Shown in pieces: positions 5,329 through 50,585 of a DNA stretch of 64,000 nucleotides; within the stretch, counting starts at the first letter, position 1, and the number at the start of each line of letters is the position of its first letter. The DNA is taken from assembly GCA_964503465.1 (NCBI GenBank), contig CAZCYZ010000004.1:16235-80234 (forward strand), written 5' to 3'. The translations under genes and the position numbers were made by a program. The notes under the pieces were generated by a model. The model was given only the letters and a program-made list of their open reading frames with translations. It did not search any database and was not told the DNA's origin. This stretch comes from an uncultured Gammaproteobacteria bacterium. GTDB lineage: Bacteria; Patescibacteriota; Microgenomatia; UBA12405.

Positions 5329-5329
5329 T

Positions 5330-6903: not shown

Positions 6904-6924
6904 TACTTATTGTATAACTAATCC

Positions 6925-31410: not shown

Positions 31411-32010
31411 ACGATGGATGGGGCAAGGACCATGGAGTTTTAAGGCAGAAAGGTGTTGTTTGGTGCCATAGCCTTTGTGGTGCTTAAAGCCGTATTGGGG
31501 ATACTGGGAATCAAAACCATCCATAATACAGTCACGAGTAACCTTGGCAACGATGGAAGCGGCGGCGATAGAAAAACATTTTTGATCGCCCTTGACAATG
31601 GACAAACCCCTCCGTCCTACGGACACCTCCCCTTGACAGGGGAGGAATCCGTCCAGAAGATAAAAATCAAACTGGCCTTGGAACGCACGTAATGCTTGAA
31701 TAACGAGTAGATTAATTGTTCGACCTATCCCCTGCTGATCGATATCGACAGAGGCGGCGGAAAATGTTTGGGGACGAAAAGATTGGAGATAGTAAAAAAT
31801 TTTTTGACGTTGACGGGAACTTAGCAATTTGGAATCACGAACAGAGAGATTGATAAACTCTTGGGGATTAAAAGTACCAAGGTCAAGAAGAAAAGCACCG
31901 ATGGTAACCGGACCGGCTAGTGGCCCACGACCAACTTCATCGATACCGAGAAGAAAACGACAACTAGGAGGGAGAAGGGATTTTTCGAAATCAAAATTGG
32001 GACTAATCAT
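31354..32010 (-). CDS. rnhB: ribonuclease HII
   Basis: LGIDEVGRGPLAGPV catalytic motif. The start was trimmed to MISPNF..., and the gene carries an in-frame palindromic element. Confidence 0.85.
   Translation of the reverse strand: MISPNFDFEKSLLPPSCRFLLGIDEVGRGPLAGPVTIGAFLLDLGTFNPQEFINLSVRDSKLLSSRQRQKIFYYLQSFRPQTFSAASVDIDQQGIGRTINLLVIQALRAFQGQFDFYLLDGFLPCQGEVSVGRRGLSIVKGDQKCFSIAAASIVAKVTRDCIMDGFDSQYPQYGFKHHKGYGTKQHLSALKLHGPCPIHRLSFRPLSTDFPHHNSRRY
31603..31653. repeat. palindromic element copy A (double hairpin), in frame within rnhB
   Basis: AAACCCCTCCGTCCTACGGACACCTCCCCTTGACAGGGGAGG; encodes LPCQGEVSVGRRGL in RNase HII. Confidence 0.7.
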
Positions 32011-32025
32011 GTGATAATGAATTAT

Positions 32026-34134: not shown

Positions 34135-34145
34135 AATATGAGACT

Positions 34146-34685: not shown

Positions 34686-35208
34686 CGCCAGACACTTTAC
34701 CCAAGAAATCAGATTTTTTGTAGGGAATAGGGTTTTCTTTGGATTTTGGTTGGGCGTTAAACCCCTCTTGGTCTCCCCTTGACAGGGGAGATTTTTTATC
34801 TGAGTCCATACCGAGATTGATAGCCCAAAAGAGATTATAGAGATCGTAGGATTTTTGAAAAAGATCATAAGCTGTTTTAGTGTCGCCTTTGGTTTGATAT
34901 TTGGTACCAACTTCCATGACCCGCATTGAGGCGGCCAAAAGATGTTTTGAGGTGCACCAAACTTCACCCTCATAATCGGGAATCAACATTTTCATAAGGA
35001 CTTTGCGCATCTCCCGGGCTTCATTTAAAAGTTCGAAATACTTAGTTTTACCAGTTTTGTTGGCATTGAAAAACATATGTTCTTCGATAGCAATCAAGTT
35101 CATAACAGCCATGGAGAGGTCTTCGCCGGAGGCAAGGTCAAACTGATGACCGGACTCGGTTTTTTTAACCTTGTCCATAAATTTCTGGAGGTCAAGAGGA
35201 TTAGTCAT
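34651..35208 (-). CDS. hypothetical protein (C-terminus built partly from a palindromic element)
   Basis: 185-aa ORF; the SPLSRGDQEG segment is encoded by the repeat element at 34759-34790. Confidence 0.35.
   Translation of the reverse strand: MTNPLDLQKFMDKVKKTESGHQFDLASGEDLSMAVMNLIAIEEHMFFNANKTGKTKYFELLNEAREMRKVLMKMLIPDYEGEVWCTSKHLLAASMRVMEVGTKYQTKGDTKTAYDLFQKSYDLYNLFWAINLGMDSDKKSPLSRGDQEGFNAQPKSKENPIPYKKSDFLGKVSGVIGKILDCCRE
34759..34790. repeat. palindromic element copy B
   Basis: AAACCCCTCTTGGTCTCCCCTTGACAGGGGAG; encodes SPLSRGDQEG on the reverse strand. Confidence 0.7.
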
Positions 35209-35246
35209 AGGGTTATTTTATCAATTAAATTTGTTATGCTGGTAAG

Positions 35247-36652: not shown

Positions 36653-36738
36653 AGGATTATGGTAACAGAAAAAAGGTCGGGGCCAAAGTCAAAGTCCCCC
36701 CGCAGTGGCGGGAAGAACCTTGACTTCGAGGAAATAAA

Positions 36739-36828
36739 TTATTTTTTGTGGCAACCGCAAGTACATTCTGGGCCACAATTACATTTGGGACCGCAACCGC
36801 AGGCACAACATTGTTTTTGATTGTCCAT
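36739..36828 (-). CDS. metallothionein-like Cys-rich peptide (29 aa, 9 Cys), not in the ORF track
   Basis: Reverse-strand translation MDNQKQCCACGCGPKCNCGPECTCGCHKK with an ATG start and TAA stop. The listed ORF 36657-36842 is in a different frame. Confidence 0.4.
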   Translation of the reverse strand: MDNQKQCCACGCGPKCNCGPECTCGCHKK

Positions 36829-36928
36829 GTTTGGTTAAACAATAATTACTACAATTGTAGTAGGATGATGGGATGATGTCAAGAGGGTGATTATGAAGAC
36901 TTGATATGTCAAGTGATAGAATACACCG

Positions 36929-38203: not shown

Positions 38204-38217
38204 GGGTGCATTATACC

Positions 38218-39270: not shown

Positions 39271-39297
39271 ACTACGAGTGTAGTATAGAATAGCGAA

Positions 39298-40005
39298 TTG
39301 TCAATGATAAAATTGGGGGTGTTGGAAATAGTAGAGAAAAAATTAAGGGACGAGGGGAGGTTTTGGGTTGCATTTGTGGGCGATTCACTAACAAGTTGCG
39401 AATGGGTGCATCCAAATTGGCGAGAGATAGTGGAATATGTATTGAAAGATAGATTACAAAGGACTTTTAAAGACTGGAAGGTCCCCTCTTGGGGAATTAG
39501 ATGTTTTAATTGTGGTTATGATGGAGCGACAACACGAGATATAGTGGACAAAACGGAGGAGATCTTGACACTAAAACCAGACATAATAATAACAATGATC
39601 GGGTCAAATGATGCAATTCTGGGGGTGTCAGTGGGGGAACATGGACAAAACGTGGAGGAAATTGCAAAAAAGCTAGGTGGAGTGGTGGTCAACGAGTTTA
39701 GTCCATTAAACGAAACAGCGACTAATAGATATAAGCCTTACGTTGAAAAAGACAGACAATTAGGATTAAGCAACTTCGTTGATATGGAGAAAGAATTCAA
39801 GCCAGAGTGGAGATTTTTTACTTTTAAATCGGAAGAGAATCCGGAAGAAGGGATAAAGGAAGGAGAACCAGATTATTGGCATCCCAACCAGCTGGGAAAT
39901 GCCTATTTAGCGAAAATAATTTTGGAGAAGGTGTTTAGAATTAGTTTTGACCCAGAAAAATTTTGGCGAGAGACGTTAGAAGGTAAAAAATATCCGGGGT
40001 ATTAA
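39298..40005 (+). CDS. SGNH/GDSL hydrolase
   Basis: Block I FVGDSLT, block III GSND, block V DYWHPN. Confidence 0.7.
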   Translation: MSMIKLGVLEIVEKKLRDEGRFWVAFVGDSLTSCEWVHPNWREIVEYVLKDRLQRTFKDWKVPSWGIRCFNCGYDGATTRDIVDKTEEILTLKPDIIITMIGSNDAILGVSVGEHGQNVEEIAKKLGGVVVNEFSPLNETATNRYKPYVEKDRQLGLSNFVDMEKEFKPEWRFFTFKSEENPEEGIKEGEPDYWHPNQLGNAYLAKIILEKVFRISFDPEKFWRETLEGKKYPGY

Positions 40006-40006
40006 G

Positions 40007-40351
40007 ATGAACAAGCAAGAATTGATTAGGCAACTCGAAAACAGACTTAAACAGGTCAGGTTGAAAGTAGAAAAAAGACGGTTGGACATGGTTAACCAGG
40101 ACGGACCAAATGAATCGAGATACATTACAGCCACGAGGTGGTTGGTGGAGCAAGAAATTGAAAGTTTGGATAGGGAGGTTGCAAGACTGACTAATGGACT
40201 AAAAGAAGTGTCGCGATTGGTCGAGGATCAAACAAGATTTTCTGACAAATATTTCGTAAGTGACAGTTTCGAGTGTGTTGACCTGGGTATAATCTCAAAG
40301 AAGACTGAAATCGGCAAGAAAATTGTTGAGTCAAACACGGCTAAGACTTGA
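40007..40351 (+). CDS. hypothetical coiled-coil protein
   Basis: 114-aa charged ORF whose 3' end overlaps the convergent repressor gene. Confidence 0.3.
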   Translation: MNKQELIRQLENRLKQVRLKVEKRRLDMVNQDGPNESRYITATRWLVEQEIESLDREVARLTNGLKEVSRLVEDQTRFSDKYFVSDSFECVDLGIISKKTEIGKKIVESNTAKT

Positions 40352-40691
40352 GAGATTTGGAGACACGACGAAAGGAGTCGAGAGCATATTGGCCATAAGA
40401 AGAGAGAACGCGGGAAAAGAGATCGTCAAGGCACTGGCAAGCAAATTTATCCTTAGTCTGGACAGGAGAATAAAGATAAGCATTGCCGGAAAGATGGCGT
40501 TTGACGATTTTTTTGTCGGACATGCGCTTGAGAACAGTCATAATGGTGGTGTAGGCGTGCCTACCTTTGAGTTTGGTCAAAACTTCGGCTGGTTTGAGGG
40601 GTGAAGATGAGGCCCAGAGAACTTCCATGATTTGTTGTTCTAGACCGCCCAAAAGACCACATTTGCCGTTACAATGACAGTTACAGTTCAT
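40341..40691 (-). CDS. BlaI/MecI/CopY-family transcriptional repressor with N-terminal Cys cluster
   Basis: EQQIMEVLWASSSPLKPAEVLTKL...AYTTIMTVLKRMSDKKIVKR winged-helix region, preceded by MNCNCHCNGKCG. Confidence 0.65.
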   Translation of the reverse strand: MNCNCHCNGKCGLLGGLEQQIMEVLWASSSPLKPAEVLTKLKGRHAYTTIMTVLKRMSDKKIVKRHLSGNAYLYSPVQTKDKFACQCLDDLFSRVLSSYGQYALDSFRRVSKSLKS

Positions 40692-40709
40692 GCTACGACA
40701 AGTGTAGCA

Positions 40710-41012
40710 TTAAGGCTTCTTTTTGTCGATTTTGTCAAGCTTGAGGCCCTTGACACCAAAGTAGACGACAGTGGCAACAACGAGAAAATCGATAAGAGTA
40801 GAGAGAAAATTACCATAGAGAACTTTGGCTGGACCAATTTGGAGAAAGGCATCTTTGAGGTTGCCAGTGAGACCAAGAAAAATACCCAAAATTGGATTAA
40901 TAATATCGGTAATGAGGGAACTGACTAGTTGTTTGACAGCACCGCCGAGAATAAAACCAACAGCTAGACCGACAATCCCCTGCTCGCGAACAAAATTAAG
41001 AAAGTCTTTCAT
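40710..41012 (-). CDS. mscL: large-conductance mechanosensitive channel MscL
   Basis: MKDFLNFVREQGIVGLAVGFILGGAVKQLVSSLITDIINP matches the MscL N-terminus and TM1; 100 aa. Confidence 0.85.
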   Translation of the reverse strand: MKDFLNFVREQGIVGLAVGFILGGAVKQLVSSLITDIINPILGIFLGLTGNLKDAFLQIGPAKVLYGNFLSTLIDFLVVATVVYFGVKGLKLDKIDKKKP

Positions 41013-41107
41013 AAACTAGTTTATCAAGTAAAATAAGATATGAATCAAATCCCGATGCTCCACTTCGTTTCGATCGGGATGTCGGATTATTAATTATATA
41101 AAAAATA

Positions 41108-41668
41108 ATGACCTCCACTCAACAAAATCTCTTAAAGGCTTTTGCGGGCGAGAGCCAGGCGAGAAATAAATATCAGACCTTTGCCAAAATAGCCAGGAAA
41201 GAGAACCTGGAGTGGGTGGCAAGAGTGTTTGAGGAGACGGCAGACAATGAGCGAGCCCATGCAGAGGAGTTGTTTGAATTGATTACCGAGCCAGTGCAAA
41301 CAGAAGGGAACTTGGGAATTATCCCATTTTATAAAACAACAGTGGAAAATTTGGAAGTAGCGGCAGAAGGAGAAAGATATGAATGGACAAAGATGTATCC
41401 TGATTTTGAGCAAATCGCCAAACAGGATGGGGACACAGAGGCGACGAGACTTTTTGGAGAATTAAAAGAAGTGGAGGAGAAACACGAAGAAAGGTATATT
41501 ATATTGGCCAAGAAACTGGACAGTAAAACACTTTATAGTTCCGACGTTGAGCTGGAGTGGAAGTGTGTAAATTGTGGATATATCCATAAGGGAAAAACAC
41601 CACCGGTGACATGTCCAGTGTGCAAAAAGCCAATGACTTGGTATATGCCGATAGGGCTAGTAAGATAA
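41108..41668 (+). CDS. rbr: rubrerythrin (ferritin-like diiron domain plus C-terminal rubredoxin-like CxxC...CxxC)
   Basis: LKAFAGESQARNKY...ERAHAEE diiron motifs and CVNCGYIH...CPVCKKP. Confidence 0.9.
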   Translation: MTSTQQNLLKAFAGESQARNKYQTFAKIARKENLEWVARVFEETADNERAHAEELFELITEPVQTEGNLGIIPFYKTTVENLEVAAEGERYEWTKMYPDFEQIAKQDGDTEATRLFGELKEVEEKHEERYIILAKKLDSKTLYSSDVELEWKCVNCGYIHKGKTPPVTCPVCKKPMTWYMPIGLVR

Positions 41669-41671
41669 AAT

Positions 41672-41709
41672 CCACCCCCTACCCCCTCCCTTGAAGAATG
41701 GAGGGGGAG
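41672..41709. repeat. palindromic element copy G (variant), between convergent rbr and the HAD gene
   Basis: CCACCCCCTACCCCCTCCCTTGAAGAATGGAGGGGGAG; supplies the last codons of the HAD ORF and is terminator-like. Confidence 0.55.
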
Positions 41710-42296
41710 ATTGATTCTAGGTCGAGAATTAGCTTGTTGTAATTCTCAAAGATGATGCCGTGAATGCCAAGGGCTTGGGCGCCGTGAATATTGGCAGGTC
41801 TATCGTCAATAAAAATTGTTTCCGAGGCGGCCAGAGAATGGCGAGAAAGTAACTGCTGGTAAATAGCCGGATCGGGCTTACGAAGACCAAGCTGCCAACT
41901 ACAGTAACCAAAACTAAAAATACCGATAATTTTTTGTTGAATATAGGGATAGAGATAGTTTTCGGCATTACTTAAATAAGCGACAGTGAAGTGACGACGA
42001 AGCCGAGCAACAAGGTCGACAACTTCGGGATTGTAGAATGATTCGAATTCGGGAGTGTGATAAACGGAATCAAGAATGCGAAGGTACGGCGCAACATCTT
42101 TGACCGGCAAGAGTTTGACAAACTGCTCCAGGGTAAGGTGGTTGTCTTCGAGAGATTTATAGTGCTGGTCGTAAATAGAACAAAAATGAACGAAGGTGTA
42201 GTGGTTGAGCTGGGCGGCTTGTTGCTTGAAACGATCGAGAAGTAACTGGTAGCGCCAAACGACATTGCCGATGTCGAAAATGAAATTTTTGATCAT
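41679..42296 (-). CDS. HAD-IA hydrolase, YihX-like (DxGNV variant)
   Basis: MIKNFIFDIGNVVW matches the FDLGNV motif I of YihX-type phosphatases. The C-terminal residues are encoded by palindromic element G. Confidence 0.65.
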   Translation of the reverse strand: MIKNFIFDIGNVVWRYQLLLDRFKQQAAQLNHYTFVHFCSIYDQHYKSLEDNHLTLEQFVKLLPVKDVAPYLRILDSVYHTPEFESFYNPEVVDLVARLRRHFTVAYLSNAENYLYPYIQQKIIGIFSFGYCSWQLGLRKPDPAIYQQLLSRHSLAASETIFIDDRPANIHGAQALGIHGIIFENYNKLILDLESISPSILQGRG

Positions 42297-42316
42297 TGAG
42301 GTAGAATACAGGAGAA

Positions 42317-42841
42317 ATGACAGACGAGGAAGTGATTAGGCGGGTACAGGAGGGGGACAAAGAGATGTTTGGAGAGATAGTGGAGAGATATTGGGGTAAA
42401 CTGGCGAGTTATATTAGACGGATGACAAATCAGCCAGAGGAAGAAGTAGAGGATCTGTTGGAAAACGTGTTAGTAAGCGCATATGTCAACATACAGGGAT
42501 TTGATACGGGTAAAAAATTTAGTAGTTGGATTTATAGAATTGCCCACAATAAGTCAGTTGATTATTTTAAAAAAAATAAACCAAAAAGACTGGAGGATGA
42601 CGAAATGCTGGCAGACAGCAAAAAACTAATGGAAGAGATGGAGATAGATAAAGAAGAGCGGAACAGGATAAGAAAGGCGGTGGAAAGATTGGAGGTAAAA
42701 TATAGGGAAGTAATATTACTTTATTATTTTGAGGACAAAAACTACGAAGAAATAAGTGATATTTTACATGTGCCCGTTGACAACGTGGGGGTGATGCTGT
42801 TTAGAGCGAAAAATAAACTGAGACAGATTTATGAAGTATGA
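42317..42841 (+). CDS. ECF-subfamily RNA polymerase sigma-70 factor
   Basis: Region 2 (VQEGDKEMFGEIVERYWGKL...YRIAHNKSVDYFKK) and region 4 HTH. Confidence 0.8.
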   Translation: MTDEEVIRRVQEGDKEMFGEIVERYWGKLASYIRRMTNQPEEEVEDLLENVLVSAYVNIQGFDTGKKFSSWIYRIAHNKSVDYFKKNKPKRLEDDEMLADSKKLMEEMEIDKEERNRIRKAVERLEVKYREVILLYYFEDKNYEEISDILHVPVDNVGVMLFRAKNKLRQIYEV

Positions 42842-42851
42842 ATCATGAAAT

Positions 42852-43277
42852 ATGAATAAAACCAAAAAAGAGATATTGGAAAAAATTAGGAAAAACGAAA
42901 TAAAGATGAAGCCGAAATGGTGGTTTGTGGCTAAAACGATGGGGCTAAGAAGCGGGGTGGGGTTAATTTGGCTGTTGGGAGCACTGGCGGCATCGGGATT
43001 ATGGTATTGGTGGGACATTAACAACCCAATAGAGTTGGCGGGGGTGGGAGACGTTGGGTGGGAAGTGATAAAAGATAAACTTCCTTACTGGCTGGTGGTA
43101 GGACTAGGGTTACTGCTGGGAGGAGGAGGGATGCTTTATTTGAAAACCGGGGAAAATTATAAGAAAACAACAAGAACGATAGTGTTAATTGTGGCCGGGG
43201 CGATGATTGGGTTGACAATACTAATGACCTGGTGGCGGTATCAAAACGAACTGGAATTATTACTAAAATTTAGTTGA
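42852..43277 (+). CDS. membrane protein, putative anti-sigma factor partner
   Basis: Immediately downstream of the ECF sigma gene, with 3-4 TM. Confidence 0.35.
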   Translation: MNKTKKEILEKIRKNEIKMKPKWWFVAKTMGLRSGVGLIWLLGALAASGLWYWWDINNPIELAGVGDVGWEVIKDKLPYWLVVGLGLLLGGGGMLYLKTGENYKKTTRTIVLIVAGAMIGLTILMTWWRYQNELELLLKFS

Positions 43278-43554
43278 GTTCGTTTTCGAGGTTCTTGAGT
43301 TCTGATTCGGAGCCGTCGTCGCTGTTGAGTTCGTCTAATAATTGTTGGTCAGTGGGGTCATCGGCTTTAACTTGGTCTTCCTGACGTTCTTCGTCGATCT
43401 TGTCATTAATCTTGTCGCCGGTTTCGATAACTTTTTCTTCGACTTGATCAACTTTTTGCTCAACTTCGTCAAGAACTTTATTTTTGAGATCCTGTTTGGC
43501 TTGACAGCCGGTGAGAATAAAAACACTAAGGAGAATGAGGACGAATGTTTTCAT
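43270..43554 (-). CDS. acidic lipoprotein
   Basis: MKTFVLILLSVFILTGC lipobox. Confidence 0.45.
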   Translation of the reverse strand: MKTFVLILLSVFILTGCQAKQDLKNKVLDEVEQKVDQVEEKVIETGDKINDKIDEERQEDQVKADDPTDQQLLDELNSDDGSESELKNLENELN

Positions 43555-43567
43555 GGAATAAGGGTAC

Positions 43568-43601
43568 CAAAAACCCGTCCCGATGCCAAGACCGGGACGG
43601 G
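43568..43601 (-). terminator. rho-independent terminator hairpin for gene 43623-44162
   Basis: 9-bp GC stem CCCGTCCCG/CGGGACGGG with a 10-nt loop. The minus-strand RNA then runs into a U-tract (+ strand aaaaa at 43569-43573). Confidence 0.5.
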
Positions 43602-43622
43602 AGGGATTAGTGTCTACCTAAA

Positions 43623-44162
43623 TTACATTTTCCAAAACTGACGAAGAACTTCAACCTCAACCTGACGGATTTGAGTGTTGACTTCGGTAACCGCCTTGCG
43701 AGCATCAAAAAGTTTTTGAATACTGGCCAGTGGTTGGTCGAGAGCTAAAAGTTCCTGATAGGCTTTATCGAGGTCGGCCATTTTGGCGGTAAAATCATCG
43801 GCAAAGTCAGAAATGCTATTGAGTTTGGTTTTGAGAGCAGTGAGGTCGACCATTTTAGCTTTTTCCTTGGCCTCGATACGAGCCATAATTTTATTCTTGG
43901 CGGTGGTGGTTAACCAATCGTAGCGTTTTTGAAGTTTAGCCTTAGCACGATTGTAAATATTGCCAACAACTTTCTTTTTGGCCTCGGTCCAAAAAGACTT
44001 ACGTTCTTGGGCGATAGTGCCACGCAACTCACCGCGTTCTTCACGAGCTTGCTGACGAAGAGCGGCATTGGTGGGATTGGGGCTAACAATAGCTAGAGAT
44101 GGGGCGGCGGTAGCCAAAAAAGTAGCGCCGACAAAAACAAAAGCGAGTTTGGTTGATTTCAT
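43623..44162 (-). CDS. secreted coiled-coil protein
   Basis: Signal peptide MKSTKLAFVFVGATFLATAAPSLA followed by an alpha-helical region. Confidence 0.45.
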   Translation of the reverse strand: MKSTKLAFVFVGATFLATAAPSLAIVSPNPTNAALRQQAREERGELRGTIAQERKSFWTEAKKKVVGNIYNRAKAKLQKRYDWLTTTAKNKIMARIEAKEKAKMVDLTALKTKLNSISDFADDFTAKMADLDKAYQELLALDQPLASIQKLFDARKAVTEVNTQIRQVEVEVLRQFWKM

Positions 44163-44213
44163 GGATTTAATAATTAGTAATTCACTTAGTAATACGAAGA
44201 AGGGAGGAGAATA

Positions 44214-45062
44214 TTACAGTTTTTGACACTGGGGGCAGAAAAAGGTACCGCGACCGCCGATAACGATGCGTTTAATGGGGATGTGGCAGATGGGGCAGGG
44301 CTCCCCCATTCGCTGGTAGACCTTAAAAAAATACTGATGGGAACCTTTGGTGCCGTCGGGAAGGATGTATTGGTCGTCGGCAGCGGTGGAACCTTGGTGG
44401 AAGATAGCCTCGGAAATAACGCTGATAACAGCTTGATGAAGTGTTTTGATTTGAGACGGTTGAAGTTGGTTGGCTTTGGAGGAAGGATGAATGCCGGCCA
44501 GAAAAAGGGAATCGTTGGCATAGATATTGCCAATACCGGCAAAACGGTTTTGATCAAGAAGGACGAATTTGATGGGGCGGGAGGAGTGGAGCTGGGAGGA
44601 AAAGTAGTCAATAGAAAAGGATGGATCGAGAATGTCGCGGCCAAGATGTAGTTGGAATTGATGAAGTTCGTCGGGAGAAAAAAGTTTAATCCAACCAAAC
44701 TTACGTTGGTCGTTGAAGTATAAAATCTCCCCCCGATCCCCTCTTTGACAAGAGGGGGAGAGATAAAAAATTACTCTAGTTGATTTGGAGTTAATGGTTG
44801 AGGTTGGATGACCCAGCTGCTGACCTTGGTAAACGATTTGACCGGTCATTTTGAGGTGGAAATGAAGGATTAAATCGTTTTGAAGATGAAGGGAAAGCTG
44901 TTTACCAAGACGGGTCAATTTGACAATTTTTTGCCCCTCGACGAGCTTGGGATCACCAACGAAAGATTTGGGGGTGAGAATGTCAACTTTTTGAATAGTT
45001 AGACCAACGAGACAAGGTTCAAGAAAGCGTCGGATAGTTTCGACTTCAGGAAGTTCGGGCAC
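44214..45062 (-). CDS. mutM: formamidopyrimidine-DNA glycosylase (Fpg/MutM; Nei not excluded)
   Basis: MPELPEVETIRR N-terminus (catalytic Pro2, Glu3) and a C-terminal zinc finger CPICHIPIKRIVIGGRGTFFCPQCQ. It contains a palindromic-element insertion. Confidence 0.85.
   Translation of the reverse strand: MPELPEVETIRRFLEPCLVGLTIQKVDILTPKSFVGDPKLVEGQKIVKLTRLGKQLSLHLQNDLILHFHLKMTGQIVYQGQQLGHPTSTINSKSTRVIFYLSPSCQRGDRGEILYFNDQRKFGWIKLFSPDELHQFQLHLGRDILDPSFSIDYFSSQLHSSRPIKFVLLDQNRFAGIGNIYANDSLFLAGIHPSSKANQLQPSQIKTLHQAVISVISEAIFHQGSTAADDQYILPDGTKGSHQYFFKVYQRMGEPCPICHIPIKRIVIGGRGTFFCPQCQKL
44726..44763. repeat. palindromic element copy C (variant), in frame within mutM
   Basis: ATCTCCCCCCGATCCCCTCTTTGACAAGAGGGGGAGAG; encodes SPSCQRGDRGE. 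Confidence 0.6.
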
Positions 45063-45076
45063 GATAGTATTTTAGC

Positions 45077-46012
45077 TCAAATCAAATCATCAAGATCTAG
45101 GACAGAGACTGAATTATTGGCGGCAAGACGACGAAGACCGATCATCATGTCGGTAAGACTGTCCTTGATTTGGGAAAAGGAATTTAGATGGGTTTGAACT
45201 TGAGAAACGTAGCCAGTGATGAGAACTAGTTCGGAGATATCCATTCGACCAGCGGTGACCCGGTAGCCAAGATAAAGAAGAATAATGGAGTAAAAGAAAA
45301 CAGCACTGTTTTGAAGATAGGCCCACTCGGTATAACCCCAATGACAAAGACGGTTGTAGTGACGGCTCCAAGAATGCTGTTCTAAATCGAAATCATTACT
45401 GTCTTGAAGTTTGCCATAATAACGTTCGGTTTTGGTATAGAGATGATCCTTGAGAAGAGCATAACGCTGGGTGGTGTAGATATCGATGAAATAATAAATA
45501 AGAATATAAGCAGTGGTGAGAATAAAAGCACTCCAATCACGAGTGAGAAGGATAACCGGGATAGTAATGAGAGAAACGAGACTGTCGATACCAGGCTGCT
45601 TAAAAAGGGATAGGGTAAGAACAGAGGCATCGGAAAAATTTCGAACCGCCTGGACGGTAGCATGGCGCTCTTCTTTGGAATCAGTTTTCAAGTCAGAGAG
45701 AAAATAGTTTTGGATATCAAAACCGATATTACTAATGGCATTGTCGAGCCGAGTGGTGGACTTGAGGCGAAGATAATTGTCAAGTAGACGGATAACAAAG
45801 AGAGCGACAATGGTGGTAAGTAGAGTGGGTAGGGATGATTGAAGTTCCAGATGGCGAATAACCAGCGAAAACTGATAAACGGTAATCAGGGGGAGAATGG
45901 CTGAGATAAACCTGATTAAGAGCCAAAAAAAGAAGGCGGATTTGTCGGTTATGATTTTGAGAATAAAAAAAAGAACTCGATGAGCTTCGGTGGTCACAGG
46001 ATTAATTATCAA
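45077..46012 (-). CDS. ABC-exporter-type transmembrane domain protein with no NBD (possibly degenerate)
   Basis: 6-TM protein of 311 aa resembling an ABC_membrane domain. It has no Walker motifs. Confidence 0.35.
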   Translation of the reverse strand: MIINPVTTEAHRVLFFILKIITDKSAFFFWLLIRFISAILPLITVYQFSLVIRHLELQSSLPTLLTTIVALFVIRLLDNYLRLKSTTRLDNAISNIGFDIQNYFLSDLKTDSKEERHATVQAVRNFSDASVLTLSLFKQPGIDSLVSLITIPVILLTRDWSAFILTTAYILIYYFIDIYTTQRYALLKDHLYTKTERYYGKLQDSNDFDLEQHSWSRHYNRLCHWGYTEWAYLQNSAVFFYSIILLYLGYRVTAGRMDISELVLITGYVSQVQTHLNSFSQIKDSLTDMMIGLRRLAANNSVSVLDLDDLI

Positions 46013-46055
46013 TTATCAATTACGAATTAGCAATTGGATTGAGGTAAAATTGGCT

Positions 46056-47051
46056 ATGAATAATGAGATATATGACACGGTAATTATCGGTTCGGGGCCG
46101 GCAGGGTTGACGGCAGCGATTTACAACATTAGGGCAAACCTAAAAACAGTGGTGGTGGCTGGGAATCAACCGGGAGGGCAACTAACGATTACAACCTTGG
46201 TGGATAACTATCCTGGATTTCCAAACGGAATTGGAGGAGTGAAGTTGATGATGGACATGATGGAACAGGTGAAGAATTTAGGAGGAGAGATAAAAAATGG
46301 AGTTGTTTTGAAAATAAACCCCTCTAAATCTCCCCTTGACAGAGGAGACTTTGAAATTACGCTGGAAAATGACGAGATAATAAAAACTAAGGCAGTAATA
46401 ATAGCGACGGGGGCAAAACACAGATGGTTGGGGCTACCAAAGGAACAGGATTTAATTGGCAAAGGGGTGTCGGGGTGTGCAACTTGTGATGGAATGTTTT
46501 TTAGGGACAAAGTGGTGGCAATTGTGGGTGGAGGTGATTCGGCTTGTACCGAGGCAGATTTTTTGACCAGGTTTGCATCGAAAGTGTATATGATTCACAG
46601 GAGGGATAGTTTGAGGGCAACAGTAGCGGAACAAAGACCAGTGTTGGAGAATCCCAAAATTGAAATGGTGTGGAACACGGAAGTGATTGAATTAAACCCC
46701 TTAAACCCCTCTCCCGCGGTAGCGGGATCTCCCCTTGATGAAGGGGAGACTTTAAAACAGATTAAAATAAGAAACAATAAAACTGGGGAGGAGAAAATAT
46801 CAGAAGTAGAAGGATTGTTTGTGGCAATAGGAGGAGATCCGGTGACTGAATTTGTAACAGACCTAGTAGAAAGGAAAGAAGGAGGACAAATTGTGGTGGG
46901 GAAGAATACAGAATATTTGACTATGAGTTCGATGCCGGGAATTTTTGCGGCGGGAGATTGCGTCAACGATAAATACATGCAGGCGATAATAGCGGCCGGT
47001 GACGGAGCTAGAGCGGCGTTGGACGCAGAGAAATGGCTAAAACAAAGATAA
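46056..47051 (+). CDS. trxB: thioredoxin-disulfide reductase
   Basis: IIGSGPAGLTAAIY (FAD), GCATCDGMFF (redox CxxC) and GGGDSA (NADPH). The start was trimmed to MNNEIYD. The gene carries two in-frame palindromic elements. Confidence 0.9.
   Translation: MNNEIYDTVIIGSGPAGLTAAIYNIRANLKTVVVAGNQPGGQLTITTLVDNYPGFPNGIGGVKLMMDMMEQVKNLGGEIKNGVVLKINPSKSPLDRGDFEITLENDEIIKTKAVIIATGAKHRWLGLPKEQDLIGKGVSGCATCDGMFFRDKVVAIVGGGDSACTEADFLTRFASKVYMIHRRDSLRATVAEQRPVLENPKIEMVWNTEVIELNPLNPSPAVAGSPLDEGETLKQIKIRNNKTGEEKISEVEGLFVAIGGDPVTEFVTDLVERKEGGQIVVGKNTEYLTMSSMPGIFAAGDCVNDKYMQAIIAAGDGARAALDAEKWLKQR
46316..46349. repeat. palindromic element copy D, in frame within trxB
   Basis: AAACCCCTCTAAATCTCCCCTTGACAGAGGAGAC; encodes NPSKSPLDRGD. 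Confidence 0.7.
46693..46750. repeat. palindromic element copy E (double hairpin), in frame within trxB
   Basis: AAACCCCTTAAACCCCTCTCCCGCGGTAGCGGGATCTCCCCTTGATGAAGGGGAGAC; encodes NPLNPSPAVAGSPLDEGE. Confidence 0.7.
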
Positions 47052-47350
47052 GTTACTTTCCTTGCGACCAACGTCGGTGACGAGAATTTTTGGGTATTTC
47101 CGAACTACGGCCATCAAAGGCCTGAGCAGGAACCAAAAAGGGACAATGTTGCCTGTCACGACAATAACAACCAGCCTTGGTGGGGGTAAAGTGTTTTTGA
47201 TCTCTTTTTCCGTGAGTACAAATAAGTTCTTCAGGAGGAATTTCATTCAAATATTTTTCTAACATTTCTGGGAACACGAACGGATGATACCAGAAAGGAA
47301 AGAAATATATTGTAGCAAGATGATGATGGATTTATAATTTCCCATACTTT

Positions 47351-49159
47351 ATGAAGAAAAAATTAGCGGTGATGCAAAATTTGGCGGTCAACCTGGGACG
47401 GATGTTAAAACTGGCCTGGGAGACTGACAGGTGGTTGACAGTTGGCTATTATTTGGCGGCAATTATTGGATCATTGATGCCAATAGGAGCAGGAATAGCT
47501 TCAAAATTTTTGATTGATTATTTAATTAAAAACCAGGGACGGATTGGGGAGATATTTGGATTAGCAATGGCGTTGGTAGTAATGCGGCTGTTGTTGCCAT
47601 TGGGAGAAACTTTAAGTTATTGGGTACTTAATGTGTCGTATTTGGACTATCTGTTTAGGTCGAAGTTGCAGAATGAAATTAACTATCGTTTTTATGCCAA
47701 AATGGCCAGTTTAGATGCGGCCTATTTTGAGGATCCAAAAACGCAGAACTTAATCACCAAGACTAAAGACACCAAAACCTGGAGGCTTCCGGATGTAATT
47801 AGAGGCCTATCATATACCACTCGATCAGTGACAATAGCAATTGGAGCAACGGGGGTGTTGATGGGATACGGCTGGTGGGTGCCGGTGGTGGTAATAGCGG
47901 CCTGTATACCAAGATTAATTAGTCAAGCAAAACAGGGTGATGTGCAGTGGTCGATATATGGATCGGGAGCACCGAAGGCGAGAAGGCTGTGGTATTTTGA
48001 GTGGTTGTTGTCGGAACCAGTAGTGCTGAAGGAAGTCAAAATATTTCAGTCGGGGGGATATTTACTTGGAAAGTTGAAACAGACCCAAAGCGACTTATTT
48101 AAAATCTATCGTAAGTCGCTTGATGATTTTGTGGGATTGTGGTTGGTACTACCGTTTATTGAGACAGCGGTGTTGATAATAGTGGCTTATTTAAAGATGG
48201 GCGAGGTGGTGACAGGGGCAATGACGGTGGGCGGATTGGCATTGTTTTTGGAAATGCTATTGTACCTTAAGGGTAATATTGTCGAAATGGCGGCCAACTT
48301 GGGATGGTTGTATGGTAACAACTTGTATGTCAATGATTTTTACAAGGTGATGAAGTTGCCGGATTTAATTAAAGAAAGAGCAAAACCAAAAAAAATCGAA
48401 ACTGACAAACCGCCAAAGATTGAATTCAAAAATGTGGGATTTGGATATCCAGGAAGCAAAAGAAGAGTGCTGGAAAAAATTAACATGGTGATTGAGCCGG
48501 GAAAAAATGTAGCAATGGTGGGAATAAATGGAGCAGGGAAAACAACAATCATTAAACTAATGTGTAGATTTTATGATGTAACCGAGGGGGAAATTTTGAT
48601 TAACGGGATAAATATAAAAGAAATTCGAAAAAGTGATTTGTATAGACTAATGGGAACCCTGTTTCAGGAATTTGCCCATTACCACTTCACAGTAGAAGAG
48701 AATATTGCCATGGGGAATCCAGGAAAGAAAAATAGTCAGAAGATGATAGTGGCGGCGAAACAAGCCGGAGCGGATAAGTTTATTGAGGGCTTGCCAAACA
48801 AATACAAGCAATTGCTGGGGCGAGAATTTGATGACGGTGAGGACATTTCGGGGGGACAGTGGCAAAAACTGGCAATTGCCAGGGCGTTTTATGAGCAGGC
48901 GCCACTGTTGATACTGGACGAGCCAACAAGTGCAATTGACGCTGAAGCAGAATTTGAAATATTTACTAACTTACAGAAGGTGTACAGGGATAAAACATTA
49001 ATACTGGTATCACATCGATTCTCGACGGTAAGGAATGCGGATATGATTTATGTGATTGAAGAAGGAAAGGTTAGCGAGGAAGGAAGTCATTGGGAACTAC
49101 TGGAGAAAAATGGTAAATATGCGTCGATGTTTAAAGCCCAAGCGAAGGGATATGAGTAA
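47351..49159 (+). CDS. ABC transporter, fused permease/ATP-binding protein (exporter type)
   Basis: 6-TM N-domain; Walker A GINGAGKTT; signature ISGGQWQKLAIARA; Walker B LILDEPTSAID. Confidence 0.85.
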   Translation: MKKKLAVMQNLAVNLGRMLKLAWETDRWLTVGYYLAAIIGSLMPIGAGIASKFLIDYLIKNQGRIGEIFGLAMALVVMRLLLPLGETLSYWVLNVSYLDYLFRSKLQNEINYRFYAKMASLDAAYFEDPKTQNLITKTKDTKTWRLPDVIRGLSYTTRSVTIAIGATGVLMGYGWWVPVVVIAACIPRLISQAKQGDVQWSIYGSGAPKARRLWYFEWLLSEPVVLKEVKIFQSGGYLLGKLKQTQSDLFKIYRKSLDDFVGLWLVLPFIETAVLIIVAYLKMGEVVTGAMTVGGLALFLEMLLYLKGNIVEMAANLGWLYGNNLYVNDFYKVMKLPDLIKERAKPKKIETDKPPKIEFKNVGFGYPGSKRRVLEKINMVIEPGKNVAMVGINGAGKTTIIKLMCRFYDVTEGEILINGINIKEIRKSDLYRLMGTLFQEFAHYHFTVEENIAMGNPGKKNSQKMIVAAKQAGADKFIEGLPNKYKQLLGREFDDGEDISGGQWQKLAIARAFYEQAPLLILDEPTSAIDAEAEFEIFTNLQKVYRDKTLILVSHRFSTVRNADMIYVIEEGKVSEEGSHWELLEKNGKYASMFKAQAKGYE

Positions 49160-49445
49160 TCAGTAAGTAACAGTATGCTATACTACAAGATAATATGACC
49201 GAAGCAAAAGTAACCGTAATTATGCCCGGTGGAAACGAGCGGGCGGTGGTGGTGAGTGGAGTATATGGGCTAAAATTAGTTCCGGGAGTCAAAGGTTTTG
49301 GGGTCGTGGGCGTAACCCATGTTCAAGACGGGGATGGATTAGATGAAGTAATAGTGACAGCAGGGATAGGGGCAAGACACGAAGTAAGACGGAGATTTGG
49401 ATGTCCTACAAAGGAAATGGTTGACATTGGGAAAGGAGTTGCGGT

Positions 49446-50585
49446 TCAAGTAGAACACTTAAAATAGGTTCTTACCTTTTTGATGAAATTTTTGGTGGAG
49501 AATTGTTGGGCGTGTTGGATGCAGACAGCGGGATTGATTTTAAGTTTTTGAAGTTTTTGGATAGCAGCGGCACAGGACTCGGGAGTAAGCTCGTTAAATA
49601 GAATTCCGGTTTGACCATCAATAACAGTTTCAGCAATGCCACCGGAGTTGTAACCAACCACCGGACAACCGTAACTTTGGGCTTCGACAGAAACAATACC
49701 AAAATCTTCTTGATCAGAACAAAAGATGTAACTTCTGGCCTGGGAAAAAAGTTGGGTTTTTTGTTCTTGGGTGACTTCACCAACAAATTCAATGGTGGGA
49801 CCGGCGATAGATTTGAGATAAGCAAGAGTACCGGCAAAATCGCGACCAAAAACCTTAAGAGGGAGTTTGAGTTGGTTGCAGGCTTCAATGGCGATATCGT
49901 AGCGTTTGGCGGCAGCAAGACGACCACCGGTGAGGAAAAACCCCTCCGTCCTACGGACAACTCCCCTTGACAGGGAAGGAGTTAATTTAGGAATATCGAC
50001 TGGGGGGTTAATGACAATTGAATCACGATCGTAGAATTTTTTGACACGGGAGGCAGTAGTAGAGGAATTGGCAAGGTATTGATCGACGTTTTGGGAAAAC
50101 TTTTTATCAAGAGGACGGAAGGTGTGATTGAGGATCCAGGAAACAAGAGAAATGACGGGGAAGCGTGATAGGTCACGAGCAGTGGGAAGTCCATAAAGAT
50201 AACGAGGTGGAGTGTGACAGTAACAGATTAGTTTGGCGGTTTGTTTGTTGAGAGCGTTGGGGAAATAGGCACCGGTGGCACTGGAAATTAAAAGATCAAA
50301 ATTGGAAAAATCAAAAAGTTGAAAGGCTAAGGGCGACAGAAGACGAAGAGGAGAAATTAGTTTGTGGGCATAAGGAATAAATCGGAAAAAACTTTGATGA
50401 ACGCGATGGGACCATTTTTTTTCAAGACGTTGTCGATGGGGACCAAAAAACTCTGGGGTATAAAGAGTAGTGTAGATAGGGGCATTGGGAAAAATGTCGG
50501 ACAGAACTTCGAGAACCGATTCGGCGCCACCATATTCTTTGAGATAGTCGTGGATGAGGGCTACTTTGGGTGAATTTGTAGTCAA
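49446..50585 (-). CDS. glycosyltransferase family 4
   Basis: EDFGIVSVEAQSYGCPVVG (EX7E). It contains palindromic element F in frame. Confidence 0.75.
   Translation of the reverse strand: MTTNSPKVALIHDYLKEYGGAESVLEVLSDIFPNAPIYTTLYTPEFFGPHRQRLEKKWSHRVHQSFFRFIPYAHKLISPLRLLSPLAFQLFDFSNFDLLISSATGAYFPNALNKQTAKLICYCHTPPRYLYGLPTARDLSRFPVISLVSWILNHTFRPLDKKFSQNVDQYLANSSTTASRVKKFYDRDSIVINPPVDIPKLTPSLSRGVVRRTEGFFLTGGRLAAAKRYDIAIEACNQLKLPLKVFGRDFAGTLAYLKSIAGPTIEFVGEVTQEQKTQLFSQARSYIFCSDQEDFGIVSVEAQSYGCPVVGYNSGGIAETVIDGQTGILFNELTPESCAAAIQKLQKLKINPAVCIQHAQQFSTKNFIKKVRTYFKCST
49938..49981. repeat. palindromic element copy F (double hairpin, near-identical to A), in frame within the GT4 gene
   Basis: AAACCCCTCCGTCCTACGGACAACTCCCCTTGACAGGGAAGGAG; encodes SLSRGVVRRTEGF on the reverse strand. 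Confidence 0.7.

What the first reader, a model, noticed from the sequence alone, without database searches (positions are those of the whole stretch)
46316..46750. Thioredoxin reductase carries two independent element insertions 380 bp apart
In trxB, copy D adds ~NPSKSPLDRGD between the FAD domain and the redox-active CATC region. Copy E adds ~NPLNPSPAVAGSPLDEGE in the NADPH domain. Two insertions in one essential redox enzyme imply strong tolerance, or even exaptation, of the encoded loops.
Basis: seen in the sequence. Interest (0 to 1): 0.55.

Follow-up and report, generated by a model that had tools for sequence, protein, structure and literature searches.

The report
Triplex-type DNA repeats inside thioredoxin reductase
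The thioredoxin reductase gene of this Shapirobacteria-like (candidate phyla radiation) bacterium really does carry two separate in-frame copies of a short repeated DNA element, whose three-part design matches known bacterial "intrastrand triplex" repeats; it seeds protein loops throughout these tiny genomes, apparently without harming the enzymes.

Summary
Confirmed. trxB (46056-47051, +) holds two copies of a dispersed repeat: D (46316-46351) and E (46694-46752). They are different sub-forms. Both are missing or different in the closest relative, so they are independent, recent events.

The element has three parts: a 5' box (AAACCCCTCT), a linker, and a hairpin (TCTCCCC-TTGACA-GGGGAGA). The box is the mirror image of the hairpin's 5' arm in at least eight sub-families. 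The linker is either 2-5 nt or a closed hairpin. This is the architecture of BoxC/PIT/TM-ECO intrastrand triplex motifs.

It differs from those motifs in three ways:
- It sits in-frame inside genes.
- Its orientation follows the G-rich strand (119 versus 12 copies), not the gene strand.
- It occurs in CPR bacteria, Geobacteraceae and Cloacimonadales.

In TrxB both copies lengthen beta-hairpin tips, which are predicted as low-confidence loops. The fold and catalytic motifs are intact. Among 120 orthologues both loops are hypervariable: 60 have both extended to at least 9 residues, 6 neither. Two TrxBs that are 96% identical differ only by one 21-nt indel at site 1.

This supports tolerance, not exaptation. 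The mobilising mechanism is unknown. I rate it a new variant of a known kind.

The parts
46056..47051 (+). trxB, low-molecular-weight thioredoxin reductase, 331 aa, intact reading frame
   Evidence: PDB TrxR hits at E = 4e-74. Pfam Pyr_redox_2. GSGPAG 12-17, CATC 141-144, GGGDSA 158-163 and HRRD 181-184 lie in conserved columns. AF2 model has TM 0.83 to M. smegmatis TrxR and 0.80 to E. coli 1TDE.
46316..46351 (+). Copy D, short form: AAAC + box CCCCTCT (46319-46325) + linker AAA (46326-46328) + hairpin TCTCCCCT/TGAC/AGAGGAGA (46329-46348) + CTT. It extends the beta-hairpin tip between strands 84-89 and 99-103.
   Evidence: (D13). Outside the one stem mismatch, it is the same short form as in Geobacteraceae and other Shapirobacteria loci.
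46694..46752 (+). Copy E, long form: duplicated half box AAACCCCTT (46694-46702), AAAC + box CCCCTCT (46703-46712), inner hairpin CCCGC-GGTA-GCGGG (46713-46726), hairpin TCTCCCCTT/GATG/AAGGGGAGA (46728-46749), CTT. It extends the hairpin tip between strands 208-213 and 235-240.
   Evidence: dG -16.4 kcal/mol, z -5.1; pLDDT below 50 at residues 219-229. The site is empty in L174.
31604..31646 (+). Copy A, long form, sub-family CCCCTCC / CCTCCCC / GGGGAGG. It is antisense inside the RNase HII gene (31354-32298, - strand).
   Evidence: (D8)
34759..34791 (+). Copy B, short form (linker TGG). It is antisense inside ORF 34651-35208 (- strand). An identical copy is present in relative L174.
   Evidence: (D13)
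41667..41710 (+). Copy of another sub-family (AAAATCCACCCCC-TA-CCCCCTCCC-TTGAAGAAT-GGAGGGGG). It lies between the convergent rubrerythrin and HAD hydrolase genes.
44722..44763 (+). Variant copy with the symmetry swapped as a unit (box TCTCCCC, arm CCCCTCTT, purine arm AAGAGGGG). It is antisense inside fpg (44214-45062, - strand) and adds 8 residues compared with PDB 1ee8.
49938..49980 (+). Copy F, long form, decayed stem. It is antisense in the inter-domain linker of a GT4 glycosyltransferase (49446-50585, - strand). An orthologous copy is present in L174.
   Evidence: (D8)

Best explanation
The two trxB segments are independent, recent insertions of a short (32-60 nt) dispersed DNA repeat.

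Anatomy (shown). The element is a 5' box, a linker and a hairpin. The box is the mirror image of the hairpin's 5' arm. Read on the G-rich strand of the element it is 5'-TCTCCCCT-GTCA-AGGGGAGA-TTT-AGAGGGGT-3': a pyrimidine arm, a purine arm and a purine third strand. That is the layout of class II intrastrand triplex motifs (BoxC / PIT / TM-ECO).

Behaviour (shown). It acts as a DNA element, not an RNA. Its orientation follows the G-rich strand of the genome, conventionally the leading strand, and not the direction of the host gene.

Inferred steps:
- Copies spread within the genome, or survive there, in a way linked to single-stranded DNA at the replication fork.
- Either insertion is strand-specific, or copies that would fold into a stable purine triplex on the lagging-strand template are removed by selection.

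Why it is tolerated (shown and inferred). Four of the six frames of the short form are open, and the frames used encode Pro/Gly/Ser/Asp-rich peptides (NPS..SPLDKGD, or SPLSRGD..EGF in reverse). Copies therefore persist in-frame at permissive surface turns. In TrxB these are two beta-hairpin tips, one in each dinucleotide-binding domain. The loops are tolerated passengers, not adapted parts of the enzyme.

The enzyme or process that moves the element is not identified.
For: Insertion and independence.

Repeat family above chance.

Mirror-box rule, tested in trxB-anchored loci not chosen for the box:
- The mirror of the arm lies upstream of 116 of 232 pyrimidine-arm hairpins, against 9 of 232 with shuffled flanks and 5 of 232 downstream.
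- For strongly asymmetric arms, 19 show the mirror and 4 a direct copy.
- It holds across at least eight arm types, including the swapped fpg variant.

Purine-motif rule: the box base facing an A-T pair is T 150, A 54, C 10, G 6. On the G-rich strand these read as A or T, the two bases the purine motif allows.

Linker: bimodal, 2-5 nt or a closed hairpin. 42 of 49 long linkers close, against 17% of shuffles.

Orientation: 7 of 7 on the + strand in the window. In 579 kb of trxB-anchored loci, 119 copies have local skew above 0.1 and 12 below -0.1. Host-gene strand is mixed: 43 sense, 44 antisense. In the window, RNase HII, Fpg and GT4 are Pfam-verified antisense hosts.

Known architecture: Holder et al. 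2015, PMC4666352.

Structure. Encoded peptides are 15% Pro, 15% Gly, 13% Ser. No Rfam family matches.
Against: - No triplex was demonstrated. ViennaRNA cannot model one, and TM-ECO itself shows no stable triplex in double-stranded DNA or in vivo.
- One sub-family (box CCCACCC) fits only the purine-motif reading. Another carries a conserved stem mismatch (CCTTCCC / GGGCAGG).
- The triplex idea does not explain the conserved TTGACA loop or the AAA...CTT flanks. These point to recognition by a protein.
- 'G-rich strand = leading strand' is assumed from convention and from about 69% of window genes lying on the + strand. No origin was identified.
- No transposase was found, but only 1.39 Mb was searched, with one query sequence recalled from memory.
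- About 5-9% of copies lie in the opposite orientation.
Confidence: 0.7

Rival explanations
1. It is a REP/REPIN-like or IS200/IS605-derived miniature element moved in trans by a HUH (Y1) transposase on single-stranded DNA. Under this view the 5' box is the protein's recognition tag, and the mirror symmetry is incidental or serves the protein. This is compatible with the insertion story. It differs on what the box is for and on the mechanism of spread.
For: - The design of a hairpin plus a conserved 5' tag resembles REPs.
- Geobacteraceae copies are inverted doublets, as in REPINs.
- A replication-strand orientation bias is typical of single-stranded DNA transposition (abstract of PMC6006769).
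- The loop TTGACA and the flanks are conserved across phyla, which suggests sequence-specific recognition.
- Intragenic REPs, including double insertions in one gene, are documented.
Against: - There is no GTAG or CGTC tag.
- No Y1 transposase was detected in the DNA held (a weak test).
- No copies were found in 2.9 million viral contigs or in plasmids.
- Three-way covariation of box and both arms, plus the A/T ambiguity at A-T pairs, is not expected for a simple protein tag.
- Holder et al. never found transposases next to TM-ECO.
Confidence: 0.3
2. No transposase is involved. New copies arise by templated insertion or gene conversion from existing copies. Short homology at native homopurine tracts (Gly-Glu/Asp codons) and at A-runs guides the event, possibly helped by triplex pairing of the box with the target duplex.
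For: - The empty site 1 allele L176 already has AAAGGGAGACTTT, where the filled allele L099 has its 3' arm. The net indel is 21 nt.
- Copy D is +24 nt relative to L143 (...ACTGGAGACTTT).
- Empty fpg alleles have AAACTCCCCT where filled ones have the box. The Fpg gain is 8 residues.
- Different sub-families occupy the same site in different lineages.
- Copy E carries a duplicated half box.
Against: - Several filled/empty pairs have no such tract in the empty allele (L121:3473, L126:8395, L166:4600).
- The pattern could come from selection for re-creating the Gly-Asp/Glu turn, or from alignment ambiguity.
- 'Empty' alleles could be partial deletions.
- It does not explain how identical copies come to be in different phyla.
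Confidence: 0.15
3. It is a DNA uptake signal for natural competence. It is over-represented because alleles that carry it are taken up and recombined preferentially.
For: - Density is high: one copy per 4.4 kb.
- It occurs in coding DNA in tolerated frames.
- It is shared among community members.
- Two hosts in the window are DNA-repair genes, RNase HII and Fpg. From my own knowledge, Neisseria uptake sequences are biased towards genome-maintenance genes.
Against: - Uptake sequences are about 10-12 nt and arise by point mutation. These are 24-60 nt indels with three-part structure and sub-families.
- The strict strand orientation is not expected for an uptake signal.
- It does not explain the mirror box or the closed-hairpin linkers.
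Confidence: 0.05
4. It works as a structured RNA (ribozyme, riboswitch, terminator or sRNA) embedded in mRNAs.
For: - The inner hairpin covaries and often has UUCG-like loops.
- Some intergenic copies are followed by A/T-rich runs.
Against: - Orientation is independent of the host gene's strand (43 sense, 44 antisense). Three Pfam-verified hosts in the window carry it antisense.
- No Rfam match, even at E = 1.
- The 'UUCG' loops are mostly 3-nt TTC loops on 4-bp stems.
Confidence: 0.03
5. The segments are ancient, lineage-specific TrxB loops kept for protein function, not mobile DNA.
For: Most Shapirobacteria TrxBs have extended loops at these two positions: 75 and 99 of 120.
Against: - The same nucleotide element occurs in unrelated genes, in both coding orientations, and between genes.
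- Loop content changes sub-family and length between close relatives.
- The loops are predicted to be disordered.
Confidence: 0.02

Closest known systems
BoxC / PIT elements / TM-ECO intrastrand triplex motif (Hoyne & Maher 2000, as cited in Holder et al.; Holder et al. 2015, PMC4666352)
   Same: - Three consecutive blocks on one strand: C-rich arm, loop of 3-6 nt, G-rich arm, loop of about 3 nt, and a G-rich third block that mirrors the second.
- G/C-rich, highly conserved and multi-copy.
- Associated with local indel instability.
- No transposase nearby.
   Different: - Different sequence and shorter arms: 7-9 nt (TCTCCCCT) against 9 nt (CCCTCNCCC).
- TM-ECO is always intergenic with no strand bias. 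This element is about 65% intragenic, in-frame, and oriented with GC skew.
- The second loop may be replaced by a closed hairpin.
- The loop TTGACA is conserved.
- It is found in CPR bacteria, Geobacteraceae and Cloacimonadales rather than in Proteobacteria such as E. coli.
REP / REPIN elements and intragenic REPs (Bertels & Rainey 2011; Di Nocera et al. 2013, PMC3733652)
   Same: - A short palindromic repeat with a conserved 5' tag, in high copy number.
- Sometimes inserted in-frame in genes, including two insertions in one gene (uvrA of Opitutus terrae).
- Inverted doublets occur in the Geobacteraceae loci.
   Different: - No GTAG or CGTC tag.
- In CPR genomes the copies are singlets in one orientation.
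- No RAYT gene was seen.
- The tag covaries as the mirror of the stem.
Rickettsia palindromic elements (RPE; Ogata et al. 2000, from my own knowledge; mentioned in PMC3733652)
   Same: Palindromic repeats inserted in-frame into many protein genes of a reduced genome. They are tolerated as extra surface peptides and are compatible with protein function.
   Different: RPEs are 100-150 bp, differ in sequence and are restricted to Rickettsia. No mirror or triplex architecture, or strand-locked orientation, is known for them.
IS200/IS605-derived miniature elements (single-stranded DNA transposition coupled to replication)
   Same: Hairpin-based elements whose orientation is linked to the replication strand.
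   Different: Those elements need left and right subterminal hairpins and a TnpA enzyme. Here there is a single unit and no TnpA was detected.

Membership tests
Low-molecular-weight thioredoxin reductase (TrxB) | FAD-binding GxGxxG motif, redox-active CxxC (CATC), NADPH-binding GGGDSA and HRRD motifs | tested here: met
   GSGPAG 12-17, CATC 141-144, GGGDSA 158-163 and HRRD 181-184 are present in the ORF and lie in invariant or near-invariant columns.
Low-molecular-weight thioredoxin reductase (TrxB) | Two-domain TrxR fold and sequence similarity to solved TrxRs | tested here: met
   phmmer E = 3.8e-74 to 5uth. AF2 pLDDT 86.7. Foldseek TM 0.83 to 5uth and 0.80 to E. coli 1tde.
Intrastrand triplex motif, class II (BoxC / PIT / TM-ECO type) | Three consecutive blocks: pyrimidine arm, complementary purine arm, and a third purine block that mirrors the second | tested here: met
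   Mirror box at 116 of 232 hairpins against 9 of 232 in shuffles, always on one side. At least eight arm types covary. Both trxB copies fit.
Intrastrand triplex motif, class II (BoxC / PIT / TM-ECO type) | Short loops (first 3-6 nt, second about 3 nt) so that the three blocks can stack | tested here: met
   The first loop is 4-8 nt. The second is 2-5 nt, or a closed hairpin in 42 of 49 long linkers. The hairpin linker is a variant not described for TM-ECO.
Intrastrand triplex motif, class II (BoxC / PIT / TM-ECO type) | The TM-ECO sequence pattern CCCTCNCCC-N3-6-GGGNGAGGG-N3-GGGNGAGGG | tested here: not met
   The arms are TCTCCCCT / AGGGGAGA and related sequences. The sequences differ. It has the same architecture but is not the same family.
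Intrastrand triplex motif, class II (BoxC / PIT / TM-ECO type) | Intergenic location with no strand bias (as reported for E. coli) | tested here: not met
   65% of copies lie inside long ORFs. 119 against 12 are oriented with GC skew. Compare.
Intrastrand triplex motif, class II (BoxC / PIT / TM-ECO type) | Forms a triplex in vitro (CD, NMR, melting) | not testable with these tools
   ViennaRNA models hairpins only.
REP / REPIN (RAYT-associated) | Conserved GTAG or CGTC tetranucleotide at one end of the palindrome | tested here: not met
   The consensus AAACCCCTCT...GGGGAGA(CTT) has neither tag.
REP / REPIN (RAYT-associated) | Inverted doublets (REPINs) | tested here: inconclusive
   Doublets occur in Geobacteraceae loci. 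In the window and the Shapirobacteria loci the copies are single units in one orientation.
REP / REPIN (RAYT-associated) | A cognate Y1 (RAYT) transposase gene in the genome, flanked by the repeats | tested here: inconclusive
   tblastn with an IS608 TnpA sequence recalled from memory found nothing in 1.39 Mb of held DNA. Whole genomes were not available.
Rickettsia palindromic elements (RPE) | In-frame insertion into protein genes with the function retained | tested here: met
   The ORFs and Pfam domains of TrxB, RNase HII, Fpg and GT4 are intact around the copies. Protein activity was not tested.
Rickettsia palindromic elements (RPE) | 100-150 bp RPE-1 to RPE-8 consensus sequences, genus Rickettsia | tested here: not met
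   The element is 32-60 nt. The host is Shapirobacteria-like by source names of the closest TrxB homologues.

The most novel reading that the evidence does not exclude
These are a previously undescribed class of mobile DNA. They are triplex-architecture repeats that colonise coding sequence in CPR bacteria and occur in near-identical form in other phyla. They keep a fixed orientation relative to replication. They spread without a dedicated transposase by choosing native homopurine tracts as targets, through triplex pairing or microhomology-templated insertion. The result is continual remodelling of surface loops in core enzymes.
Probability: 0.2. Interest if true: 0.85.

Novelty: new variant of a known kind. 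Interest (0 to 1): 0.6.

Why it matters
Short palindromic repeats inside genes (RPEs, intragenic REPs) and intrastrand triplex motifs (BoxC/PIT/TM-ECO) have been described separately. The function and means of spread of the triplex motifs remain unknown.

Here the two come together:
- A triplex-type repeat occurs about once per 4-9 kb in roughly 1-Mb CPR genomes.
- It sits mostly inside genes.
- Its orientation follows the replication-associated strand asymmetry.
- Covariation across sub-families argues that the three-strand geometry itself is under selection.

This gives a natural system for asking three questions:
- Do intrastrand triplexes form in vivo?
- How do such repeats move?
- How much does insertion of this kind drive loop evolution in the proteins of reduced genomes?

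For annotation, it explains the many odd Pro/Gly/Ser-rich inserts (NPS..SPLDKGD, SPLSRGD..EGF) in CPR proteins.

Tried and rejected
- **Rfam.** The whole window at gathering threshold and the trxB region at E up to 1 gave no family. Together with the mixed gene-strand orientation, this set the RNA reading aside.
- **Pyrimidine-motif triplex on the C-rich strand (my first idea).** It fits most sub-families, but not the box CCCACCC or the 25% of A at T positions. The purine-motif reading on the G-rich strand fits both.
- **UUCG tetraloops as a sign of RNA.** The inner loops are mostly 3-nt TTC/TGC loops on 4-bp stems.
- **Literature.** Searches for the sequence itself and for CPR or Shapirobacteria repeats found nothing.
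- **Carriers.** The pattern has no match in 2.9 million viral contigs. The 36-nt short form has no match in plasmids.
- **Transposase.** tblastn with a recalled IS608 TnpA against all held DNA gave nothing. This is a weak test.
- **Origin of replication at the skew switch near 7.5 kb.** No dnaA or other origin marker lies in ORFs 55-8562.
- **'Native purine tract as target'.** It is seen at trxB site 1 and in fpg but not at three other filled/empty sites. I kept it only as a minor rival.
- **Cross-phylum spread.** The 'uncultured Gammaproteobacteria' labels are unreliable: L011 has a trxB flank 76% identical in nucleotides to the Shapirobacteria-like L097. The claim therefore rests on the Geobacteraceae/Desulfuromonadaceae and Cloacimonadales loci.
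Full report
**1. The observation**

The ORF 46056-47051 (+) encodes a 331-residue low-molecular-weight thioredoxin reductase.
- PDB TrxRs match at E = 4e-74, and Pfam gives Pyr_redox_2.
- The segments are at the reported coordinates:
  - Copy D: AAACCCCTCTAAATCTCCCCTTGACAGAGGAGACTT (46316-46351).
  - Copy E: AAACCCCTTAAACCCCTCTCCCGCGGTAGCGGGATCTCCCCTTGATGAAGGGGAGACTT (46694-46752).
- They belong to a dispersed family. The core pattern hits 8 times against 0.35 expected.
- A scan for the full three-part architecture finds 7 copies, all on the + strand, against 0.02 expected per shuffle. The starts are 31604, 34759, 41667, 44722, 46316, 46694 and 49938.
- Of the few G+C-rich perfect hairpins in the window, four of five belong to this family.

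**2. They are insertions, and they are independent**

- Alignment to solved TrxRs shows gaps at exactly these two places.
- Source names of the closest homologues place the organism in Candidatus Shapirobacteria, within the CPR/Microgenomates.
- Among 120 homologues at 60-80% identity, both positions vary greatly in length and content:
  - Site 1 is extended (9 residues or more) in 75 and site 2 in 99.
  - Both are extended in 60 and neither in 6.
  - On a neighbour-joining tree this needs at least 28 and 17 state changes.
- DNA of about 70 orthologues shows that occupied sites carry nucleotide-level copies of several sub-families of the same kind of element. Many other orthologues are empty at these sites.
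- The closest relative (L174, 78% identical) has an empty site 2 and a different, degenerate element at site 1. It keeps orthologous copies B and F in neighbouring genes.
- D is a short form and E a long form with another loop. They are separate events, both younger than copies B and F.
- The clearest case of recent turnover: TrxBs P0015 and P0044 are 96% identical and differ by one 7-residue indel at site 1. This is 21 nt at the DNA level in genes that are otherwise about 95% identical.

**3. Anatomy of the element**

Alignment of 59 copies gives three parts:
- AAACCCCTCT.
- A linker, or a variable inner hairpin.
- ATCTCCCC-TTGA(C/T)(A/GAA/AAA)-GGGGAGA.

*The box is the mirror of the hairpin's 5' arm, not its complement.* Examples of box / arm / purine arm:
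- CCCCTCT / TCTCCCC / GGGGAGA
- CCCCTCC / CCTCCCC / GGGGAGG (copy A)
- CCCCCCT / TCCCCCC / GGGGGGA (Geobacteraceae)
- TCCCTCT / TCTCCCT
- TCTCCCT / TCCCTCT
- The swapped fpg variant, TCTCCCC / CCCCTCT / AGAGGGG

*Unbiased test.* I repeated this in trxB-anchored loci that were not chosen for the box:
- The mirror lies upstream of 116 of 232 pyrimidine-arm hairpins.
- With shuffled flanks it appears at 9 of 232, and downstream of the hairpin at 5 of 232.
- For strongly asymmetric arms, 19 show the mirror and 4 a direct copy.

*Base rule.* Opposite an A-T pair the box has T (150) or A (54), rarely C or G. On the element's G-rich strand these read as A or T in the third strand. Those are the two bases a purine-motif triplex allows (A.A-T or T.A-T). 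This follows established triplex rules, as summarised in PMC4666352.

*Linker.* It is bimodal: 2-5 nt, or a longer sequence that closes on itself. 42 of 49 long linkers do so, against 17% of shuffles. Either way the box stays next to the stem.

**4. What this architecture is**

Read on the G-rich strand, the element is 5'-TCTCCCCT-GTCA-AGGGGAGA-TTT-AGAGGGGT-3'. This is the block order of the class II intrastrand triplex motif known as BoxC, PIT or TM-ECO: CCCTCNCCC-N3-6-GGGNGAGGG-N3-GGGNGAGGG (Holder et al. 2015, PMC4666352).

From that paper:
- TM-ECO forms a stable triplex as an isolated strand in vitro.
- No stable triplex was seen in double-stranded DNA or in vivo.
- It is always intergenic, without strand bias.
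- It is associated with local instability.
- No transposase was ever found next to it.

**5. It behaves as DNA, not RNA**

- In the window, all seven copies are on the + strand. RNase HII, Fpg and GT4 are on the - strand, verified by Pfam, and carry their copies antisense.
- In 579 kb of non-redundant trxB-anchored loci there are 133 copies, one per 4.4 kb:
  - 119 have local GC skew above +0.1 in the element's orientation, and 12 below -0.1. Several of the 12 are mirror-image artefacts of the palindrome.
  - Orientation relative to the longest covering ORF is 43 sense and 44 antisense.
  - 65% lie within long ORFs, against 76% of random positions.
- The pattern-based genome set shows the same bias.
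- Rfam has no match.
- The window's skew is +0.2 to +0.44 across genes of both orientations. The skew, and the element's orientation with it, therefore follows the replication strand rather than transcription. That the G-rich strand is the leading strand is an inference from convention and from about 69% of window genes being on the + strand.

**6. Distribution**

An exact-pattern scan of one genome per species found 93 loci.
- *CPR.* Shapirobacteria, Collierbacteria and other Patescibacteria.
- *Other phyla.* Five Geobacteraceae/Desulfuromonadaceae MAGs (GC 0.50-0.58), where the element forms inverted doublets of two sub-families, and one Cloacimonadales MAG with nine loci.
- *Homology beyond the pattern.* The short form agrees between Geobacteraceae and Shapirobacteria at positions the search pattern did not fix (linker AAA, 3' CTT).
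- *Suspect labels.* The 'uncultured Gammaproteobacteria' labels are doubtful. L011 has a trxB flank 76% identical in nucleotides to a Shapirobacteria-like locus.
- *No carriers found.* There were no matches in viral contigs or plasmids.

**7. Effect on TrxB**

- The AlphaFold2 model (105-sequence alignment, mean pLDDT 86.7, pTM 0.84) has the normal TrxR fold. Foldseek TM is 0.83 to M. smegmatis TrxR and 0.80 to E. coli 1TDE.
- Copy D lengthens the turn between strands 84-89 and 99-103 of the FAD domain. The 10-residue block there has pLDDT 73.
- Copy E lengthens the turn between strands 208-213 and 235-240 of the NADPH domain. Residues 219-229 have pLDDT below 50.
- Catalytic and cofactor motifs are intact.
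- Intragenic copies encode peptides that are 15% Pro, 15% Gly and 13% Ser. The sense frame gives NPS..SPLDKGD. Because the stem is palindromic, the antisense frame gives SPLSRGD..EGF.
- In other orthologues the same two turns also accept unrelated low-complexity inserts, so they are generally permissive.
- This supports tolerance. Nothing supports exaptation.

**8. Mechanism: shown and inferred**

*Shown:*
- The segments are insertions.
- The two insertions in trxB are independent.
- Box, arm and purine arm covary as a mirror plus a palindrome.
- The linker is either short or closed.
- Orientation follows the skew, not the gene.
- Copies persist in-frame.

*Inferred:*
- The three-strand fold matters on single-stranded DNA at the fork.
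- The orientation bias comes either from strand-specific insertion or from selection against the stable purine-motif fold on the lagging-strand template.

*Unknown:*
- What moves the element.
- Why the TTGACA loop and the AAA/CTT flanks are conserved.

*An unexplained lead.* At trxB site 1 and in fpg, the empty alleles already hold a homopurine or homopyrimidine tract where one element strand sits, and the net insertion is the element minus that strand. Three other filled/empty sites lack this.

**9. Comparison and novelty**

- It works like a BoxC/PIT/TM-ECO triplex motif and is distributed like RPEs or intragenic REPs.
- It is not a member of the TM-ECO sequence family, not a GTAG/CGTC REP, and not an RPE.
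- I found no description of it in the searched literature.
- I rate it a new variant of a known kind.
- The trxB double insertion itself is typical for this lineage. The element behind it is the more interesting result.

Noticed in passing
window 1-64000 (switch near 7500): GC skew is very strong, +0.2 to +0.44, from about 7.6 kb to the end, across genes of both orientations. It is negative before about 7.5 kb, where the cumulative skew has its minimum. No dnaA or other origin marker lies in ORFs 55-8562. Those ORFs encode an SRAP peptidase, a Y-family polymerase, an inositol monophosphatase, a PEMT-like protein, a methyltransferase, a VTT-domain protein and an EamA transporter.
   Followed up: partly
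window 1-31000 versus 31600-50000: All seven element copies lie within 31.6-50 kb. None lies in the first 31 kb or the last 14 kb.
   Followed up: no
window 41667-41710: An element copy of another sub-family sits between the convergent rubrerythrin (41108-41668, +) and HAD hydrolase (41679-42296, -) genes. It overlaps the 3' end of the HAD gene.
   Followed up: partly
window 46694-46712; L098 about 6660-6690: Copy E begins with a duplicated half box (AAACCCCTT before AAACCCCTCT). L098 site 2 shows the same kind of duplication (AAACCCAGAG AAACCCACCC). This may be the trace of an earlier element at the same site.
   Followed up: no
L135, L152, L117, L122 (trxB sites 1 and 2): In some orthologues the same two TrxB loops carry unrelated low-complexity inserts made of tandem heptamers (ATTACGA..., CAGATGT..., GTCAGCC...). 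These turns therefore accept other kinds of insertion too.
   Followed up: no
L006, L009, L010, L035, L047, L053, L070, L092 and other Geobacteraceae loci: Here the element occurs as an inverted doublet: a forward AAACCCCTCT-type unit, a spacer of about 10 nt, and a reversed AACCCCCCT-type unit. This resembles a REPIN. It is unlike the single, one-orientation copies in CPR genomes.
   Followed up: partly
L099:6260-6300 versus L176:3260-3285: Two trxB alleles about 95% identical in nucleotides differ by a 21-nt indel at site 1. The empty allele retains AAAGGGAGACTTT, the sequence of the element's 3' arm. The 15 nt upstream carry a cluster of substitutions.
   Followed up: partly
L011 (CAYPBP010000007.1) and similar low-GC, high-skew loci: MAGs labelled 'uncultured Gammaproteobacteria' have 31-39% GC and GC skew of 0.2-0.36. 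L011 also has a trxB flank 76% identical in nucleotides to a Shapirobacteria-like contig. The taxonomic labels are probably wrong.
   Followed up: partly
L109, L120, L124, L154, L155 (e.g. L124:3555): One sub-family (AAACCCTTCC ... CCTTCCC-TTGACA-GGGCAGG) carries the same T-C stem mismatch in many independent copies. It encodes the recurrent ..LDRAG.. peptide seen in several TrxBs.
   Followed up: no
window hosts: 31354-32298 (RNase HII), 44214-45062 (Fpg): Two of the six host genes in the window are DNA-repair or replication genes. Intragenic REPs have been reported to favour such genes (PMC3733652). The sample here is too small to judge.
   Followed up: no
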